Source of the DNA: a phage | Direction: 5' to 3' (one strand) | DNA length: 52,976 bases | Assembly (NCBI GenBank): GCA_014691105.1 | Contig: GCA_014691105.1_4891.1 | Shown: in pieces, positions 9,544-43,553 of the stretch | Layout of the letters: each line of letters starts with the position of its first letter | How positions within the stretch are numbered: position 1 is the first letter of the stretch | Program-made: the position numbers and the translations under genes | The notes under the pieces: generated by a model | The model's input: the letters and a program-made list of their open reading frames with translations, nothing else | Databases searched by the model: none | Told to the model about the DNA's origin: nothing

Positions 9544-11106
9544 ATGTCGATAACCCCAAGCAGCACGCCGAACGTCGGATACCAGCGTCCTGAGCTGACT
9601 AAGAACGCTGGTAAGTACCGAATGATTAAGGACTGCATCGAGGGTCAGGAAGCTGTTAAAGCACGCGGTGATTTTTATCTGCCTCGCCCTGACCCTACGA
9701 ATTGCACAGAAGAAAACCTGATGCGGTATAATTCGTACCTGCGCCGCGCTGTGTTCTACAACGTACTGCAGCGAACTCTTTCGGGTATGACTGGCCTGGT
9801 ATTCCAGCAGCAGCCTGAGATGCTGATGCCTGACGATATGGAAGTGCTGAAAGTAAATATCGACGGTGCAGGCATTGGTGCTATTCAGCAAATGCGTAAG
9901 TGCTTCAAGTCTGTTCTGGCTTTTGGTCGAGCAGGTCTGTTGACTGACTTCCCTAAAGCACGTATCGGTGAGTTTGGCGAGTCCATTGGTTTTACCCGTA
10001 AAGAGCTGATGGATGGAGAAGTACAGCCGACTGTAACGCTGTATATGCCATGGCAGATTATAAACTGGCGGGAAGAGTATCGCAACGGTAAAGTGATGCT
10101 TACTCAAGTTGTCATTTGCGAACAGATACCGGGTGTTACTGATGGCTTTCAGCAAGACTACACACCCGTGTGGCGTCACCTTTACCTGGATGAAGAAGGC
10201 AATTGCAACCAGTCTTTGTGGGTCAATAAGGGCGACAAGAACGCGCAGAACGTATCCGGCGGTGCGGTGTATGTCACGCAGGAAAATGTTGTCTTACGCG
10301 ACTCCAATGGCTTACCGTTGAAGTTTATTCCGTTCCAGTTTATTGGTTCTGAAACAAACAGCGCTGAGATTGACCCTCCGCCGATGTACGACTTAGCTGT
10401 GCTTAATATTGCACACTACCGTAACTCTGCTGACTACGAAGAATCATGCTTCGTAACAGGTCAACCCACAGTATGGGCGTCTGGTCTTACTGAAGCATGG
10501 GTTGAAGATGTTCTGAAGGGTGAACTGCGACTCGGTTCGTTTGGTGGTATTCCGCTGCCGGCTAACGCCGCTGTAGGTATTATCCAGACCAACCCTAACA
10601 CCCAGCCGTTTGAAGCGATGAAGCAAAAAGAAGCGCAGATGATTGCAATCGGTGCTCGACTGATTCGTGAGAATGGTAAGGTAGAACGACGCGAAGTTGA
10701 GATTAAGAATGAAGCGGCGTCTGAAGCTTCGCTTATCGTAACTGTTGCGCAGAACGTTGAAGCTGCTTATCGTAAAGCAATCGAATGGTGTGGCCTGTTC
10801 TACGGACACCCTAAAGAAGAAATTACGATTAACCTCAGCTACAACTTCATTTATAGCCAGTTGACTTATCAAGAACGTCAGCAGCTGGTTAACGAATGGA
10901 TTGCCGGTGCTATCACGTTTAGTGAGATGCGTAGCAATCTTAAACAGGCTGGCATTGCTAAGCTCACCGACGAAGAAGCCAAGAAGCTAATTGATGAAGA
11001 GCTGGCTGAACGCGATGCGCGTGAGGTAGCAAAAGAAGCAGAAAAGAACGCTCAAGCAGCTAAGAACAGCGATGGGCAGGAAAATAATCCAGAAAAAACT
11101 GAATAA
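9544..11106 (+). CDS. portal protein
   Basis: 520-aa protein directly after terL with an acidic C-terminus; call by size and position. Confidence 0.65.
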   Translation: MSITPSSTPNVGYQRPELTKNAGKYRMIKDCIEGQEAVKARGDFYLPRPDPTNCTEENLMRYNSYLRRAVFYNVLQRTLSGMTGLVFQQQPEMLMPDDMEVLKVNIDGAGIGAIQQMRKCFKSVLAFGRAGLLTDFPKARIGEFGESIGFTRKELMDGEVQPTVTLYMPWQIINWREEYRNGKVMLTQVVICEQIPGVTDGFQQDYTPVWRHLYLDEEGNCNQSLWVNKGDKNAQNVSGGAVYVTQENVVLRDSNGLPLKFIPFQFIGSETNSAEIDPPPMYDLAVLNIAHYRNSADYEESCFVTGQPTVWASGLTEAWVEDVLKGELRLGSFGGIPLPANAAVGIIQTNPNTQPFEAMKQKEAQMIAIGARLIRENGKVERREVEIKNEAASEASLIVTVAQNVEAAYRKAIEWCGLFYGHPKEEITINLSYNFIYSQLTYQERQQLVNEWIAGAITFSEMRSNLKQAGIAKLTDEEAKKLIDEELAERDAREVAKEAEKNAQAAKNSDGQENNPEKTE

Positions 11107-11111
11107 AGCTA

Positions 11112-11140
11112 TTTACTTTCGGTTTACCTGGCTATATAAT
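11112..11140 (+). promoter_or_regulatory. sigma70-like promoter TTTACT-N17-TATAAT
   Basis: TTTACT 11112-11117, TATAAT 11135-11140; a long hairpin (11152..11217) follows at the predicted transcript 5' end. Confidence 0.55.
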
Positions 11141-11283
11141 CCTTCATGTCAACCGCGCAACAGCCGGCCACGAGAGTCTGCAGGGCTCAGTGGATTTCGG
11201 ATGGCTGGCTGCGCGGTTTGACCCAAACCTGTTCGGAGCCCACTTGAGTGGATTGAGCCCCTCTCATATAGGATTGTAAAATT

Positions 11284-11997
11284 ATGGCACTTAAAACAGT
11301 TGTAACTGACCTTAACGAAGTTGATGAAGGCTTCCGTGGCCTGTATATCAAAGACGACGCGTCCGGTGCGTTTCGTTTGGATGTTGAACCAGACGAAAAA
11401 ACGCTGAAAGAATTAGAAGACCTGCGCAAAGAAAAACAGCGTATGGAGCAGCACACCAAAAAACTTCTCGAAGAGAAGAAAAAAGAAGCTGAACGTGCTC
11501 GCCTCGCTGAAGAAGAACGCGCACGTCGTGAGCGTGATGTTGAATCTCTTGAGCGTTCAATCAAAGAGAAGCATCAGGCTGAACTTGAACAGTATACCAG
11601 TCGTCAGGCACAGCTGCAAGCACAGCTGGAAGCGCAGATGGTTGATAACATCGCGTTGAACCTGGCTAACCAACTCTCTGACACCCCGGCATTAATTATG
11701 CCACACATCAAGGCCCGACTGCGCGCTCAGGAAATTGATGGTAAGTGGCGTACTATCGTCGTGGATGTTATGGGTAACCCGACTGCTACAACGCCAGATG
11801 AGCTAGTGGAGCATATGCGCGCTGATAAGCAGTTTGCACCTCTTGTGCGTGGAACCAAGGCTGGCGGTGGCGGTGCCAACGGCGGCGGAGCTAATCCTGG
11901 TGGGAACGGCGGTGGCGAACAGCACACTTTCGGGGGCGGGGATGACCGCATAGCACGTGCTCGTGCTAAAATCCAAAACACACAATGGGGCAAATAA
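11284..11997 (+). CDS. putative scaffolding protein
   Basis: Charged coiled-coil sequence (EEKKKEAERARLAEEERARRERD) and Gly-rich C-terminus, between portal and major capsid genes. Confidence 0.5.
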   Translation: MALKTVVTDLNEVDEGFRGLYIKDDASGAFRLDVEPDEKTLKELEDLRKEKQRMEQHTKKLLEEKKKEAERARLAEEERARRERDVESLERSIKEKHQAELEQYTSRQAQLQAQLEAQMVDNIALNLANQLSDTPALIMPHIKARLRAQEIDGKWRTIVVDVMGNPTATTPDELVEHMRADKQFAPLVRGTKAGGGGANGGGANPGGNGGGEQHTFGGGDDRIARARAKIQNTQWGK

Positions 11998-12000
11998 GTT

Positions 12001-12978
12001 ATGTCACTGTATATTTTTAACGAACAAGTACGTTCTACCGCCACCGAACTGGTCGACCAGGACGTACAGAAGTTCAACGAAGCTTCTGCAGGTACCCTTA
12101 TCCTGGGTAACCAGTACGTAATTGGTGATTACGTTGAGCAGGCAATGTGGCAGCTGGTTGACGGCATCGCTACTCGCCGTAATGCTTACGCAGGCACCAA
12201 CAAAGTTGATGCACAGACTCTGGGCCAGATTCTGGACCGCTCTGTTAAAATCGACGGCCGTGTTGGTCCTCTGAACATTACCGGTACTATGATGCGTCGC
12301 ATCGGTGCAGGTGATACTGAACCAGCAGCTGTTGTTGCTGCACAGGCATCTGCTGCAATGTTCCAGGATTACCTGAACACCACTGCTGCATGTCTGGTAG
12401 CTGCTATCGGCGCAAACGCTGATGTTGTTCTGGACGTAACTTCAGGCTCCGGTGCTGCTGCAAACATCACCATGCAGAACCTGAACAAAGTCAACGCGAA
12501 GATGGGTGACCGTTCTCAGCAGATTCGTGCGTACATCATGCACTCTACTGCGTTCCACTCCCTCATCGACCAGGCTATCAACAACACAGAACACCTGTTC
12601 CAGATTGGTGACCTGAACGTGTACAAAGACTTCCTGGGTCGTCGTTATGTCGTTTCCGACATCCCGGCTCTGGTTGATGGCGCCGGTGCTTCCGCTAAGT
12701 ACCGCACTCTGGGTCTGACCCCGTCTGCTGCAATCGTTCAGGTCGGCGGCCTGTACGACATGGTTACCTCCGAGCAAACCGGTGGTGAAAACATCCTGCG
12801 TCAGATGCAGGGTGAATACGACTTCAACGTGTCGCTGAAAGGCTACAGCTGGGTCGGTCACAAAGCTGGTCAGTCTCCGACTGATGAAGACCTGGCTGCT
12901 CAGGCGTCCTGGTCTAAAGTTGCGACTTCCAACAAAGACACCGCCGGTGTTATGTTGCTGGCTAAGTCTGCAATCTAA
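12001..12978 (+). CDS. major capsid protein
   Basis: 325-aa ORF after the scaffold, followed by a strong intrinsic terminator; call by position and size. Confidence 0.6.
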   Translation: MSLYIFNEQVRSTATELVDQDVQKFNEASAGTLILGNQYVIGDYVEQAMWQLVDGIATRRNAYAGTNKVDAQTLGQILDRSVKIDGRVGPLNITGTMMRRIGAGDTEPAAVVAAQASAAMFQDYLNTTAACLVAAIGANADVVLDVTSGSGAAANITMQNLNKVNAKMGDRSQQIRAYIMHSTAFHSLIDQAINNTEHLFQIGDLNVYKDFLGRRYVVSDIPALVDGAGASAKYRTLGLTPSAAIVQVGGLYDMVTSEQTGGENILRQMQGEYDFNVSLKGYSWVGHKAGQSPTDEDLAAQASWSKVATSNKDTAGVMLLAKSAI

Positions 12979-13000
12979 CCCACAAACGGGACTAACAAAA

Positions 13001-13030
13001 GGCGAGCTGACGAGCTCGCCTTTTTTATTT
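13001..13030 (+). terminator. rho-independent terminator
   Basis: 8-bp stem GGCGAGCT/AGCTCGCC with GACG loop followed by TTTTTTATTT. Confidence 0.75.
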
Positions 13031-13056
13031 ACACGTATAAAGTTCTGGTATATAAT
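13028..13056 (+). promoter_or_regulatory. sigma70-like promoter TTTACA-N17-TATAAT
   Basis: TTTACA 13028-13033, TATAAT 13051-13056, then GGAGG RBS before the 13083 start. Confidence 0.55.
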
Positions 13057-42674: not shown

Positions 42675-43553
42675 TTATTTTAAGGAAAGTTTAACGGGCT
42701 TCTCATCCTGTGGGAAGACATCAGCGGGGCGATAATCATCACAAGCTGCTAATTGTTCTTCGATTGTTTCGAGCTCTTTCTGGTGCTTGTTGCAATACCA
42801 CACTTTGCCCTGAAGCGGTTTACTGTAATGGCAGGTTCTGCAGTTCCTGTCAGGCATTGCTCCTTTGTGGCACAAGTGGTGGTACTCACACATTCCTGGC
42901 TTGCACTCCCACCAGATAGGCGATTCAGAAATCTTCGGCATATCCAAACCAGATTCCGCATATACAACAGCCTCCGCTTTACTCAGTTGTATGTCGCTTT
43001 CCAGTAAGTCAATCTCGACCACTTCAAAATACATCTCGTCGGTGTTCTTGTTGATTGCAATATACACAGCTTGGTTAAGCTTAAGCTTCCGCATGTATAC
43101 CTGCATCTGGGCGTAGTGTACCGGCTTACTTGCTTTAACAGACTTGAGCTTGACTAACTCTTTAAACGACTTATCGCCATGCGTCTTGAATTCAGCAAGT
43201 GCCCATACGCCTTTGTATTTGATCACACAGTCACAAGACCCAGAGAAGATGCCATTGAATTCATGTATGCGCCATTGCTTACCAGTCTTAGGATTGACGT
43301 CCAGCACTTCGTCACATACTGAACGAAGCCACTTTATAATTCTGCTTTCTTCAAGGTTACCACGTTCAAACAGACGAAGTTGCTTAGCCGTAAACTTCTC
43401 CTTGAACGACCAGTGCAGTACATGCCAAAGATAGCGATAGCAGTTGTGCCCTATCTGCGATGCTCCAAGATGCCCGCGTCGTTCTTCTCTTTCGTGGGCT
43501 TCGACTATCTTGATGTCAATACGTTTCTGCAGGTCGTCAAACGGACTGGACAT
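42675..43553 (-). CDS. PD-(D/E)XK nuclease of the Cas4/RecB-like exonuclease family
   Basis: D...EFK core (CDCVIKYKGVWALAEFKT), QhxxY motif (YAQMQVY) and a C-terminal cysteine cluster; track ORF extends to 43670 but the Met at 43553 is the likely start. Confidence 0.6.
   Translation of the reverse strand: MSSPFDDLQKRIDIKIVEAHEREERRGHLGASQIGHNCYRYLWHVLHWSFKEKFTAKQLRLFERGNLEESRIIKWLRSVCDEVLDVNPKTGKQWRIHEFNGIFSGSCDCVIKYKGVWALAEFKTHGDKSFKELVKLKSVKASKPVHYAQMQVYMRKLKLNQAVYIAINKNTDEMYFEVVEIDLLESDIQLSKAEAVVYAESGLDMPKISESPIWWECKPGMCEYHHLCHKGAMPDRNCRTCHYSKPLQGKVWYCNKHQKELETIEEQLAACDDYRPADVFPQDEKPVKLSLK

What the first reader, a model, noticed from the sequence alone, without database searches (positions are those of the whole stretch)
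11141..11283. Long imperfect hairpin at the predicted 5' end of the capsid-operon transcript
Immediately after the promoter at 11112..11140 the sequence ACCGCGCAACAGCCGGCCA (11152-11170) pairs with TGGCTGGCTGCGCGGT (11202-11217). A second GC-rich palindrome (CACTTGAGTG flanked by GAGCCC repeats) follows before the scaffold start. A 140-nt structured GC-rich leader is unusual in this AT-moderate genome.
Basis: seen in the sequence. Interest (0 to 1): 0.4.

Follow-up and report, generated by a model that had tools for sequence, protein, structure and literature searches.

The report
Pseudoknotted leader RNA of capsid genes
The hairpin is real and is part of a previously undescribed, evolutionarily conserved 126-base folded RNA (two domains locked by a pseudoknot) that forms the whole 5' untranslated leader of the phage's scaffold and major-capsid-protein messenger RNA, and most likely controls how much of these shell proteins is made.

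Summary
11152-11170 pairs with 11202-17, just downstream of a sigma70-type promoter (11112-11140).

It is more than a hairpin. Bases 11148-11273 are the most conserved 125-nt stretch of the genome against Loughboroughvirus S144: 100% identical, against 77% genome-wide.

Eighteen distinct versions were collected from Rosemountvirus, Loughboroughvirus and uncultured relatives (portal identity down to 63%). All keep one architecture:
- A long hairpin, P1-P2-P2c, with an 8-nt loop A-GGGCUCA.
- A second stem, P3-P4-P5.
- A 7-bp pseudoknot between that loop and UGAGCCC (11254-60).

On a manual structural alignment, 27 of 53 pairs show compensatory changes and 91% of cells are paired, against 31-41% in slid controls.

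P1 starts 5-7 nt after the -10 hexamer. P3 ends in or next to the Shine-Dalgarno sequence. The unit is promoter, leader, scaffold, capsid protein, then a strong terminator.

There is no Rfam match, no conserved ORF and only one copy per genome.

Best reading: a cis-acting post-transcriptional control leader (mRNA protection plus factor-dependent translation control). The function is inferred, not shown. It is a new RNA family of a known general kind, of moderate interest.

The parts
11112..11140 (+). Sigma70-type promoter, TTTACT-17 nt-TATAAT.
   Evidence: Found by the scan. It is one of 10 TTTAC-N16-19-TATAAT sites in the window, against 0.12 expected by chance. The -35, the 17-nt spacer and the -10 are kept in all 18 relatives.
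11148..11159 (+). P1, 5' strand (GUCAACCGCGCA). It starts 7 nt after the -10 hexamer, so within 0-2 nt of the predicted +1.
   Evidence: Pairs with 11210-11222. 10 of the 12 pairs show compensatory double changes and 99.5% of cells are paired. Also predicted on the unfitted MAFFT alignment.
11163..11173 (+). P2 (GCCGGCC) and its extension P2x (ACGA), 5' strand.
   Evidence: Pairs with 11197-11199, 11202 and 11203-11209. 5 of the 11 pairs show double changes.
11176..11195 (+). Apical hairpin P2c (11176-81 pairs with 11190-95), with the 8-nt loop A-GGGCUCA at 11182-11189.
   Evidence: Present in the MFE fold and in the unbiased RNAalifold prediction. 98% of cells are paired. The C11181-G11190 pair becomes U-A in L015, L017 and L018.
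11183..11189 (+). Pseudoknot 5' strand, GGGCUCA (loop of P2c).
   Evidence: Seven Watson-Crick pairs with 11254-11260 in all 17 aligned sequences, and in the 18th (L044) by reading its sequence. GGGUUCA/UGAACCC in L015, L017 and L018 is a compensatory change. Duplex energy is -12.0 kcal/mol.
11197..11222 (+). 3' strands of P2x, P2 and P1 (U11219 is bulged).
11228..11233 (+). P3, 5' strand (CCUGUU). P3 is the closing helix of domain 2.
   Evidence: Pairs with 11267-11272. 3 of the 7 pairs show double changes, for example CCAAUU/AAUUGG in L018.
11234..11238 (+). P4, 5' strand ((C)GGAG).
   Evidence: Pairs with 11261-11265. Becomes UUUAG/CUAAA in L015 and L017, and CUAAG/CUAAG in L018. 3 of the 5 pairs show double changes.
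11240..11251 (+). P5 hairpin, CCAC-UUGA-GUGG.
   Evidence: Covaries: CUAA/UUAG, CGC/GCG and CUAAA/UUUAG in other sequences. It is reduced to 2 GC pairs in the fHy-Eco03 group. 79% of cells are paired.
11254..11260 (+). Pseudoknot 3' strand, UGAGCCC, in the 3' internal loop between P5 and P4.
11261..11272 (+). 3' strands of P4 (CUCUC) and P3 (UAUAGG).
11270..11273 (+). Shine-Dalgarno AGGA of the scaffold gene. Its two G residues are the outer C-G pairs of P3.
   Evidence: Read directly from the sequence. In L015, L017 and L018 the SD lies 0-7 nt 3' of P3 instead.
11284..11997 (+). Head scaffolding protein gene.
   Evidence: ORF listed. Matches phrog_206, E = 6.7e-47.
12001..12978 (+). Major capsid protein gene.
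   Evidence: ORF listed. Matches PF20036 Gp13-like, E = 8e-104, and phrog_247.
12997..13030 (+). Intrinsic terminator that closes the scaffold-capsid transcription unit. It is followed at 13028-13056 by the next promoter.
   Evidence: 12-bp GC-rich stem followed by a T run. Fold z = -5.0. Equivalent terminators follow the capsid gene in L015 and L018.

Best explanation
Bases 11148-11273 are a structured, cis-acting 5' leader RNA of a self-contained scaffold + major-capsid-protein mRNA.

SHOWN HERE
- It is an RNA-level element on the + strand with a conserved two-domain fold.
- Domain 1 is a roughly 30-bp interrupted hairpin (P1, P2, P2x, P2c).
- Domain 2 is a stem of three helices (P3, P4, P5).
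- The 8-nt apical loop of domain 1 pairs through 7 bp with the 3' internal loop of domain 2. This is an H-type pseudoknot with a 1-nt first loop.
- The fold spans the whole untranslated region, from 5-7 nt after the -10 hexamer to the Shine-Dalgarno sequence.

INFERRED
- The module sets the output of the two shell proteins after transcription.
- The 5'-terminal helix, and the lack of long single-stranded stretches, would shield the mRNA from RppH/RNase E entry.
- P2, P2c and the pseudoknot are almost sequence-invariant, whereas P1 and P3-P5 covary freely. I read the invariant part as a recognition surface for a trans-acting factor.
- That factor is most plausibly a phage head protein such as unassembled scaffold, by analogy with the P22 scaffold and T4 gp32 feedback loops.
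- Binding of the factor would stabilise P3 and so hinder 30S access to the adjacent or overlapping Shine-Dalgarno sequence.
For: Conservation:
- The element is 100% identical to S144, where the portal gene is 78%, the promoter 78%, the scaffold gene 84% and the capsid gene 90% identical. It is the top 125-nt window of the genome.

Structure:
- 53 pairs, 91.3% of cells paired, 27 pairs with changes on both sides, 0/500 shuffles reaching the observed values, and slid controls at 31-41% paired.
- P1, P2 and P2c were also recovered on an unfitted MAFFT alignment.
- All five substitutions that the L015/L017/L018 clade carries in the otherwise invariant core and receptor are compensatory or pair-improving.

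Homology:
- A covariance model built only from close relatives finds the divergent copies at E = 1e-11 to 1e-15.
- The + strand scores 145 bits against 15 bits for the - strand.
- There is one copy per genome.
- Many conserved G-U pairs indicate that the + strand RNA is the functional strand.

Placement:
- In 18/18 sequences the order is promoter, then 5-7 nt, then P1. The leader is 133-142 nt long. The SD lies inside P3 or within 7 nt after it.

Transcription unit:
- A terminator lies directly after the capsid gene in the window, L015 and L018.
- The other structural-gene promoters annotated in S144 mostly have leaders of roughly 30 nt (up to about 60), against 144 nt here.

Energetics:
- The nested consensus (-50.3) plus the pseudoknot duplex (-12.0) is lower than the best nested MFE of -54.2 kcal/mol. 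No pseudoknot loop penalty was applied, so this is only a rough comparison.

Precedents:
- 5' structures stabilise E. coli mRNAs because RppH and RNase E need single-stranded 5' ends (PMC3997798).
- T4 gp32 represses its own translation through a leader pseudoknot (PMC3014915).
- P22 scaffold synthesis is autoregulated after transcription (Casjens & Adams 1985 and Wyckoff & Casjens 1985, as cited in PMC5529062).
Against: - No transcript 5' end, half-life, translation or binding data exist for these phages. The S144 paper only predicts promoters.
- The pseudoknot and P2c compensatory changes each rest on one evolutionary event, shared by three sequences.
- The domain-2 alignment was made by hand to fit the structure, so its counts lean towards it.
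- P5 is nearly lost in the fHy-Eco03 group.
- SD sequestration is not conserved: the SD lies outside P3 in L015, L017 and L018. A simple occlusion switch is therefore not general.
- A plain stabiliser would not need this much sequence invariance, and no RNA-binding regulator has been identified in the genome.
- The 100% identity with S144 could owe something to recent recombination, because the neighbouring capsid gene is also well conserved.
Confidence: 0.5

Rival explanations
1. Passive stabiliser or translation enhancer only. The compact fold protects the very abundant scaffold/capsid mRNA from 5'-end-dependent decay and presents the ribosome-binding site. No trans-acting ligand or feedback is involved.
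For: P1 begins 5-7 nt after the -10 hexamer in 18/18 sequences. The leader has almost no long single-stranded stretch. It heads the one unit whose products are needed in the highest copy number. The stabilising effect of 5' structures is established (PMC3997798).
Against: A single 5' hairpin is enough for stabilisation. The near-invariance of P2, P2c, the loop and the receptor, at a divergence where P1 changes 10 of its 12 pairs, suggests sequence-specific recognition or a precise tertiary fold.
Confidence: 0.25
2. A new riboswitch. The pseudoknotted fold binds a small molecule and gates translation of the shell genes.
For: The element has covarying helices plus invariant segments, lies in a 5' UTR next to the SD, and has a pseudoknot linking two domains. 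There is no known family match.
Against: Very few invariant unpaired nucleotides remain once P2c and the pseudoknot are accounted for (G11174, A11175, A11182). There is no conserved alternative (mutually exclusive) structure. SD occlusion is not conserved. There is no terminator in the leader. Capsid genes are an unusual riboswitch target.
Confidence: 0.07
3. A processing element. Either it is a new self-cleaving ribozyme, or the long P1-P2 duplex is an RNase III site. In both cases it would cut read-through transcripts coming from the portal gene.
For: No terminator separates the portal gene from the element, so read-through RNA should contain it. P1+P2+P2x form about 23 bp of interrupted duplex. 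Pseudoknotted folds are typical of small ribozymes (my own knowledge).
Against: No ribozyme family matches, even at E <= 10. A promoter is strictly conserved immediately upstream, so the 5' end does not need to be made by cleavage. There are few conserved unpaired nucleotides.
Confidence: 0.07
4. A put-like RNA that acts on the transcribing RNA polymerase to suppress pausing or termination.
For: The structured RNA is made immediately after a promoter, and the phage uses host RNA polymerase.
Against: The unit ends about 1.7 kb downstream at a strong terminator, which is followed at once by its own promoter. There is only one copy per genome. The architecture is a pseudoknot abutting an SD, not two free stem-loops.
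Confidence: 0.03
5. A trans-acting or assembly RNA. The loop and receptor would pair between molecules (pRNA-like oligomers), or the leader would bind portal or scaffold to nucleate procapsids.
For: The 7-nt loop/receptor complementarity could in principle form in trans. The element sits between the portal and scaffold genes. An mRNA-portal interaction was once proposed for P22 (Bazinet et al. 1990, as cited in PMC5529062).
Against: No terminator releases a separate small RNA. The phage has ordinary large and small terminase genes. The cis geometry is a textbook H-type pseudoknot.
Confidence: 0.03
6. Not an RNA element at all: a small protein gene, a DNA-level site (operator, pac site or origin), or identity left by recent recombination.
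For: Some records annotate small ORFs here. The identity to S144 is perfect.
Against: No ORF is conserved. All frames are interrupted in L015-L018, and the ATG at 11146 is TTG or ACG in relatives. Compensatory changes and + strand-specific G-U pairs are signatures of RNA. The genome ends of fHy-Eco03 are direct terminal repeats located elsewhere. Divergent copies keep the fold at about 50% sequence change.
Confidence: 0.02

Closest known systems
T4/T2/RB69 gene 32 mRNA leader pseudoknot (autogenous translational operator)
   Same: A phage mRNA 5' leader that carries a conserved H-type pseudoknot upstream of the ribosome-binding site. It belongs to an unusually stable, highly expressed mRNA and is used for post-transcriptional dosage control (PMC3014915).
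   Different: The gene 32 pseudoknot is small and lies 67 nt upstream of the start codon. It nucleates cooperative binding along an unstructured A+U-rich tract. Here the fold is 126 nt with two domains and six helices, fills the whole leader, and precedes scaffold/capsid genes. The binding protein is unknown and there is no sequence relationship.
P22 scaffolding protein (gp8) post-transcriptional autoregulation
   Same: The same gene class, and the same logic of matching scaffold synthesis to assembly (titles cited in PMC5529062).
   Different: To my knowledge no defined RNA structure has been described for P22. P22 is unrelated to this phage clade. Feedback has not been tested here.
ompA / papA-type 5' UTR stabilisers of E. 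coli mRNAs
   Same: A long (about 130 nt) 5' UTR whose first helix sits at the very 5' end and protects against RppH/RNase E (PMC3997798).
   Different: Those stabilisers are simple hairpins without a pseudoknot and without long invariant sequence blocks.
HK022 put antiterminator RNA
   Same: A cis-acting structured RNA transcribed immediately after a phage promoter that is read by host RNA polymerase (my own knowledge).
   Different: put consists of two stem-loops, occurs at two operon starts and precedes terminators in long operons. This element is single-copy and pseudoknotted, abuts an SD, and heads a short unit that ends at a strong terminator.
phi29 pRNA
   Same: A phage-encoded, structured RNA of about 120 nt with complementary loop sequences, linked to head morphogenesis (my own knowledge).
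   Different: pRNA is a separate small transcript that pairs in trans and replaces part of the packaging motor. Here the RNA is an mRNA leader with a cis pseudoknot geometry, in a phage with standard terminases.

Membership tests
Any Rfam 15 family (riboswitches, self-cleaving ribozymes, phage cis-elements, sRNAs) | Covariance-model match at or near the family's gathering score. | tested here: not met
   No hit in the leader at E <= 10 in the window (the best is a 15.9-bit chance match to a eukaryotic Hac1 intron model whose gathering score is 41). No hit in the leaders of four divergent copies searched at E <= 5.
tRNA / tmRNA-like element | Cloverleaf or tmRNA fold detectable by ARAGORN. | tested here: not met
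   ARAGORN found 0 genes in the whole window.
Intrinsic terminator / transcription attenuator | GC-rich hairpin immediately followed by a U run inside the leader. | tested here: not met
   No terminator-like site lies between 11141 and 11283. P1 is followed by CCAAACC.
HK022 put-type antiterminator RNA | Made at the start of the transcript, directly after the promoter. | tested here: met
   P1 starts 5-7 nt after the -10 hexamer in 18/18 sequences. The transcription start is predicted, not mapped.
HK022 put-type antiterminator RNA | Promotes read-through of downstream terminators in a long operon; present at more than one operon start. | tested here: not met
   There is a single copy per genome. 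The unit ends at a strong terminator, with a fresh promoter right behind it. Read-through itself is not testable here.
T4 gene 32-type autoregulatory leader | Pseudoknot in the 5' leader upstream of the ribosome-binding site. | tested here: met
   A 7-bp pseudoknot is paired in 100% of cells and shows one compensatory change.
T4 gene 32-type autoregulatory leader | Unstructured A+U-rich tract between the pseudoknot and the RBS, for cooperative protein binding. | tested here: not met
   The leader is base-paired up to the SD. Only 10-21 nt follow P3.
T4 gene 32-type autoregulatory leader | Bound by the protein it encodes, which represses translation. | not testable with these tools
   Needs binding and reporter assays.
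ompA-type 5' stabiliser | Stem-loop with no more than a few unpaired nucleotides at the mRNA 5' end. | tested here: inconclusive
   The geometry relative to the conserved promoter fits, but the 5' end has not been mapped experimentally.
ompA-type 5' stabiliser | Prolongs mRNA half-life in an RNase E/RppH-dependent way. | not testable with these tools
   Needs rifampicin chase experiments in rne/rppH backgrounds.
Riboswitch (generic) | A conserved ligand pocket of many invariant unpaired nucleotides, plus a conserved alternative expression platform. | tested here: not met
   Only about 3 invariant unpaired nucleotides remain (G11174, A11175, A11182). The SD lies inside P3 in most sequences but outside it in L015, L017 and L018. 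No competing conserved helix was seen.
RNase III processing site | About 20 bp or more of coaxial duplex. | tested here: met
   P1 (12 bp) + P2 (7 bp) + P2x (3-4 bp), with a 3-nt bulge. Cleavage itself is not testable.
phi29-type pRNA | An independent small RNA with its own 3' end, whose loops pair between molecules. | tested here: not met
   No terminator lies before the scaffold start codon. Whether the loop/receptor complementarity forms in cis or in trans cannot be resolved by sequence.

The most novel reading that the evidence does not exclude
The leader is an assembly-sensing RNA operator, which would be a new class. Its invariant P2-P2c-pseudoknot surface binds unassembled scaffold (or portal or capsid protein) and throttles translation of the scaffold-capsid mRNA. 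This would couple shell-protein synthesis to procapsid assembly, and would supply the RNA half of the feedback described genetically for P22 in 1985 but never defined structurally. A still bolder variant, not excluded, is that the loop and receptor pair in trans and the RNA itself takes part in nucleating procapsids at the portal.
Probability: 0.22. Interest if true: 0.75.

Novelty: new variant of a known kind. Interest (0 to 1): 0.55.

Why it matters
Structured mRNA leaders are a known kind of regulator. This one is a new family with an unusually well-supported fold: six helices plus a pseudoknot. It sits in front of the genes that build the phage shell.

Rosemountvirus and Loughboroughvirus phages are being developed against Salmonella, E. 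coli and Klebsiella. A defined control element for capsid output would therefore be useful for engineering them.

It would also give a tractable RNA with which to ask how tailed phages match scaffold and coat synthesis to assembly. That question has been open since the P22 work of the 1980s.

If the element binds a ligand or protein, it would add a second viral example to the T4 gene 32 pseudoknot. A 2010 review called that pseudoknot possibly the only viral pseudoknot used for translational autoregulation (PMC3014915).

Tried and rejected
- Small ORF. The 33-aa ORF at 11146-11247 and the ORFs annotated in KE25 and SOI901 were rejected. The start codon is not conserved, the indels are not multiples of three, and every frame is broken in L015-L018.
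- Packaging site. Rejected because fHy-Eco03 has 3.7-kb direct terminal repeats elsewhere. The genome records that start here are arbitrary cuts.
- Phage RNA polymerase promoter. Rejected because no RNA polymerase gene was identified in the S144 genome (PMC7432712).
- My first idea for the conserved core was a 2-bp helix with a GA/GGA motif. I replaced it with the 6-bp P2c hairpin that the unbiased RNAalifold run suggested. P2c explains the C8/G17 double change.
- An outer P3a helix (CAA/UUG), predicted for the window alone, is not kept in SOI901, L025, L031 or L035 and was dropped.
- Pairing of AAUCCU (11138-43) with AGGAUU (11270-75) was dropped. It is not conserved and probably lies upstream of +1.
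- CsrA-type GGA sites were considered. The conserved GGA at 11192-94 is inside a helix, so this was not pursued.
- Wider searches by pattern found only the same clade plus chance hits that the covariance model rejects. These covered IMG/VR (three scans), JGI metagenomes (one) and GTDB genomes (one).
- Portal-based searches of IMG/VR gave no new lineages.
- One more distant portal relative whose gene order was read (47% identity, L033) has a Mu-F-like gene between portal and scaffold and only a 35-nt gap before the scaffold gene. The covariance model finds no element there, nor in two other distant loci (L010, L043).
- The two P22 papers of 1985 could not be read because they are not held.

Full report
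OBSERVATION

It also shows CACTTGAGTG flanked by two GAGCCC copies. A sigma70-type site TTTACT-17-TATAAT lies at 11112-11140.

Folding 11141-11283 as RNA gives -54.2 kcal/mol, with z = -2.45 against dinucleotide shuffles. The opposite strand folds a little less well. On one sequence this is suggestive, not decisive. The element is 60% G+C in a 46% window.

CONTEXT

The window is a Rosemountvirus-type myophage of about 53 kb. It is 99.7% identical to Escherichia phage CF2 over the queried 1.2-kb region (10600-11800), and 95-99% identical there to BP63-like Salmonella phages.

The finding fills the gap between two genes:
- The portal gene (9544-11106; phrog_145).
- The head scaffolding gene (11284-11997; phrog_206).

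The scaffolding gene is followed 3 nt later by the major capsid gene (12001-12978; PF20036). Directly after the capsid gene lies a textbook intrinsic terminator at 12997-13030: a 12-bp stem followed by a T run, with fold z = -5.0. It overlaps the next promoter at 13028-13056.

The window holds ten TTTAC-N16-19-TATAAT sites where 0.12 are expected, so this promoter type is real and repeated. In the annotated relative S144 the other structural-gene promoters mostly sit about 30 nt (up to about 60) before their start codons. The one before the scaffold gene sits 144 nt before it.

The element is therefore the whole 5' untranslated region of a short, self-contained scaffold + capsid transcription unit. 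The same terminator arrangement is found in two divergent relatives.

CONSERVATION

The gap is better conserved than the genes around it. The figures below are percent identity to the window.

| Region | vs S144 (Loughboroughvirus) | vs fHy-Eco03 |
|---|---|---|
| Portal gene | 78% | 75% (flanks overall 75-85%) |
| Promoter | 78% | 71% |
| Bases 11148-11273 | 100% | 87% |
| Scaffold gene | 84% | 80% |
| Capsid gene | 90% | 85% |

Genome-wide identity to S144 is 77%. 11152-11276 is the single best 125-nt window of the whole genome in that comparison. The block of conservation starts exactly at the first paired base and ends at the last.

RELATIVES AND STRUCTURE

GenBank phages gave three sequence types. 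A portal search of 5.8 billion proteins, followed by contig look-ups, added uncultured relatives with portal identity of 78% down to 63%. This brought the total to 18 distinct leaders.

Every one keeps four features:
- A gap of about 175 nt.
- The promoter, with a 17-nt spacer.
- 5-7 nt between the -10 hexamer and the first helix.
- A leader of 133-142 nt.

The four most divergent copies (L015-L018) differ at about half of the positions yet keep the same helices through compensatory changes.

An unfitted MAFFT/RNAalifold run already recovers P1, P2 and an apical hairpin, P2c, with double changes. I then made a manual structural alignment, entered with N in place of gaps (alignment A6). On it the full model has 53 pairs, and the counts are as follows:
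- 91.3% of cells form standard pairs.
- 27 pairs carry changes on both sides.
- None of 500 shuffles reaches any of the five observed measures.
- Sliding the partners by 1-3 columns drops pairing to 31-41%.

P1 is the best supported helix: 10 of its 12 pairs are compensatory.

The model in window coordinates:
- P1: 11148-59 with 11210-22.
- P2 and P2x: 11163-73 with 11197-11209.
- P2c: 11176-81 with 11190-95, with an 8-nt loop at 11182-89.
- P3: 11228-33 with 11267-72.
- P4: 11234-38 with 11261-65.
- P5: 11240-43 with 11248-51.

PSEUDOKNOT

The loop GGGCUCA (11183-89) is perfectly complementary to UGAGCCC (11254-60), which lies in the 3' internal loop between P5 and P4. All seven pairs are present in all 17 aligned sequences, and in the 18th (L044) by reading its sequence. 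In L015, L017 and L018 the pair of strands reads GGGUUCA/UGAACCC, a compensatory C-G to U-A change.

In that clade the otherwise invariant core and receptor carry only five substitutions. All five are compensatory or pair-improving:
- C8-G17 to U-A in P2c (two substitutions).
- G7-U18 to G-C in P2c (one substitution).
- The pseudoknot pair (two substitutions).

The geometry is a classical H-type pseudoknot: a 5-6 bp stem, then 1 nt, then a 7-bp second stem stacked directly on the first. The nested consensus (-50.3) plus the pseudoknot duplex (-12.0) is lower than the best nested fold of -54.2 kcal/mol. No pseudoknot loop penalty was applied, so this comparison is only rough.

The caveat is that the pseudoknot and P2c covariations each rest on one event in one lineage.

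WHAT IT IS NOT

- No Rfam family matches the leader, in the window (E <= 10) or in divergent copies (E <= 5).
- There is no tRNA or tmRNA.
- No ORF is conserved on either strand.
- The many conserved G-U pairs, and a covariance-model score of 145 bits on the + strand against 15 on the - strand, show a + strand RNA rather than a DNA site.
- A model built only from close relatives finds L015-L018 at E = 1e-11 to 1e-15. It finds one copy per genome and rejects the chance pattern hits.
- Pattern scans of IMG/VR, JGI metagenomes and GTDB genomes found only members of this phage clade.
- Among 5,426 complete E. coli genomes the element occurs only in two 53-kb 'plasmids' that, by their size, appear to be the phage genome itself.
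- Three more distant portal relatives that were checked lack it.
- The phage group has no RNA polymerase of its own (PMC7432712). Its genome ends lie elsewhere.

HOW IT PROBABLY WORKS

What is shown: a conserved, pseudoknotted fold that occupies the whole leader of the scaffold-capsid mRNA. It runs from about +1 to the Shine-Dalgarno sequence, whose two G residues are the outer pairs of P3 in 15 of 18 sequences.

What is inferred rests on three points:
- A helix at the very 5' end, together with the absence of long single strands, should protect against RppH and RNase E. Both enzymes need single-stranded 5' ends (PMC3997798).
- P2, P2c, the loop and the receptor hardly change, at a divergence where P1 has replaced 10 of its 12 pairs. 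This points to sequence-specific recognition by a factor.
- Phage precedents for such feedback are the gp32 leader pseudoknot of T4 (PMC3014915) and the post-transcriptional autoregulation of the P22 scaffold gene (cited in PMC5529062).

I therefore favour a cis-acting control leader that combines mRNA protection with factor-dependent control of translation initiation.

The rivals, in order:
- A purely passive stabiliser is the main one.
- A riboswitch is disfavoured by the few invariant unpaired bases and by the non-conserved SD occlusion.
- A ribozyme or RNase III site is disfavoured by the strictly conserved promoter and the absence of any family match.
- A put-like antiterminator is disfavoured by the short unit that ends at a strong terminator.
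- A pRNA-like assembly RNA is disfavoured because no separate small RNA can be released.

COMPARISON AND NOVELTY

It works most like the T4 gene 32 leader or an ompA-type stabiliser. It is a member of neither: the fold, size, gene context and sequence are all different, and the defining protein binding or half-life effects are untested.

I rate it a new variant of a known kind. It is a new, clade-restricted RNA family among structured phage mRNA leaders. Interest is moderate. The fold is unusually well supported, and it sits at a point where an old question, how scaffold and coat synthesis are matched to assembly, could be tested. However, the distribution is narrow and the function is inferred.

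LIMITS

- There are only 18 distinct sequences and about five deep lineages.
- The domain-2 alignment was fitted by hand.
- P5 is weak in one group.
- There are no experimental data on transcripts for these phages.

Noticed in passing
window 12997-13056: A strong intrinsic terminator (12-bp stem plus T run) lies directly after the major capsid gene. It overlaps the -35 of the next TTTACA-17-TATAAT promoter, which sits 26 nt before the head-tail adaptor gene. The structural region is therefore cut into short promoter-terminator units.
   Followed up: yes
window 1881, 7739, 11112, 13028, 18486, 21352, 39512, 44702, 48996, 49704: Ten TTTAC-N16-19-TATAAT promoter-like sites occur where 0.12 are expected by chance. 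Each faces the direction of the neighbouring genes. This is a phage-specific promoter family that has not been described experimentally.
   Followed up: partly
window 20377-21256 (inside ORF 19194-21326): About 0.9 kb of a tail-protein gene is 94-100% identical to fHy-Eco03 (several 125-nt windows at 100%), although the two genomes are only 74% identical overall. This looks like a recent recombination patch.
   Followed up: no
H173 NZ_JBVNBN010000003.1 and H174 NZ_CP067310.1 (E. coli genomes): Two complete E. coli assemblies list a 52.8-kb and a 53.5-kb 'plasmid' that carry the leader at 99-100% identity and match the phage genome in size. This could be a carrier state, pseudolysogeny or contamination.
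   Followed up: no
L027 (JAEWER010000021.1, Bacillota MAG); PP583539.1 'Listeria phage 220426122051': A contig carrying a leader identical to the yarpen type is binned in a Bacillota MAG. A record labelled as a Listeria phage is 96.7% identical to these Salmonella/E. coli phages over the 1.2-kb query. Both host assignments look doubtful.
   Followed up: no
L017 4127-4447: One divergent relative has an extra 106-aa ORF inserted between the portal gene and the promoter/leader. The promoter and leader stay attached to the scaffold gene, not to the portal gene.
   Followed up: partly
L015 5955-6116: The gap after the capsid gene holds a terminator, a hairpin upstream of it and a long extra hairpin downstream (-57.7 kcal/mol, z = -5.3). 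Weak sub-threshold Rfam sRNA hits fall here.
   Followed up: no
L014 (fHy-Eco03) 12326-12694 and 42840-43388: HNH homing endonuclease genes are inserted after the capsid gene and within the replication module of fHy-Eco03. Both are absent from the window.
   Followed up: no
window 11236-11241: A first GAGCCC copy, overlapping P4 and P5, could also pair with the apical loop in the window-type sequences. It is absent from L015-L018 and L016, so a conserved alternative conformer is unlikely, although it is not excluded for this subgroup.
   Followed up: partly
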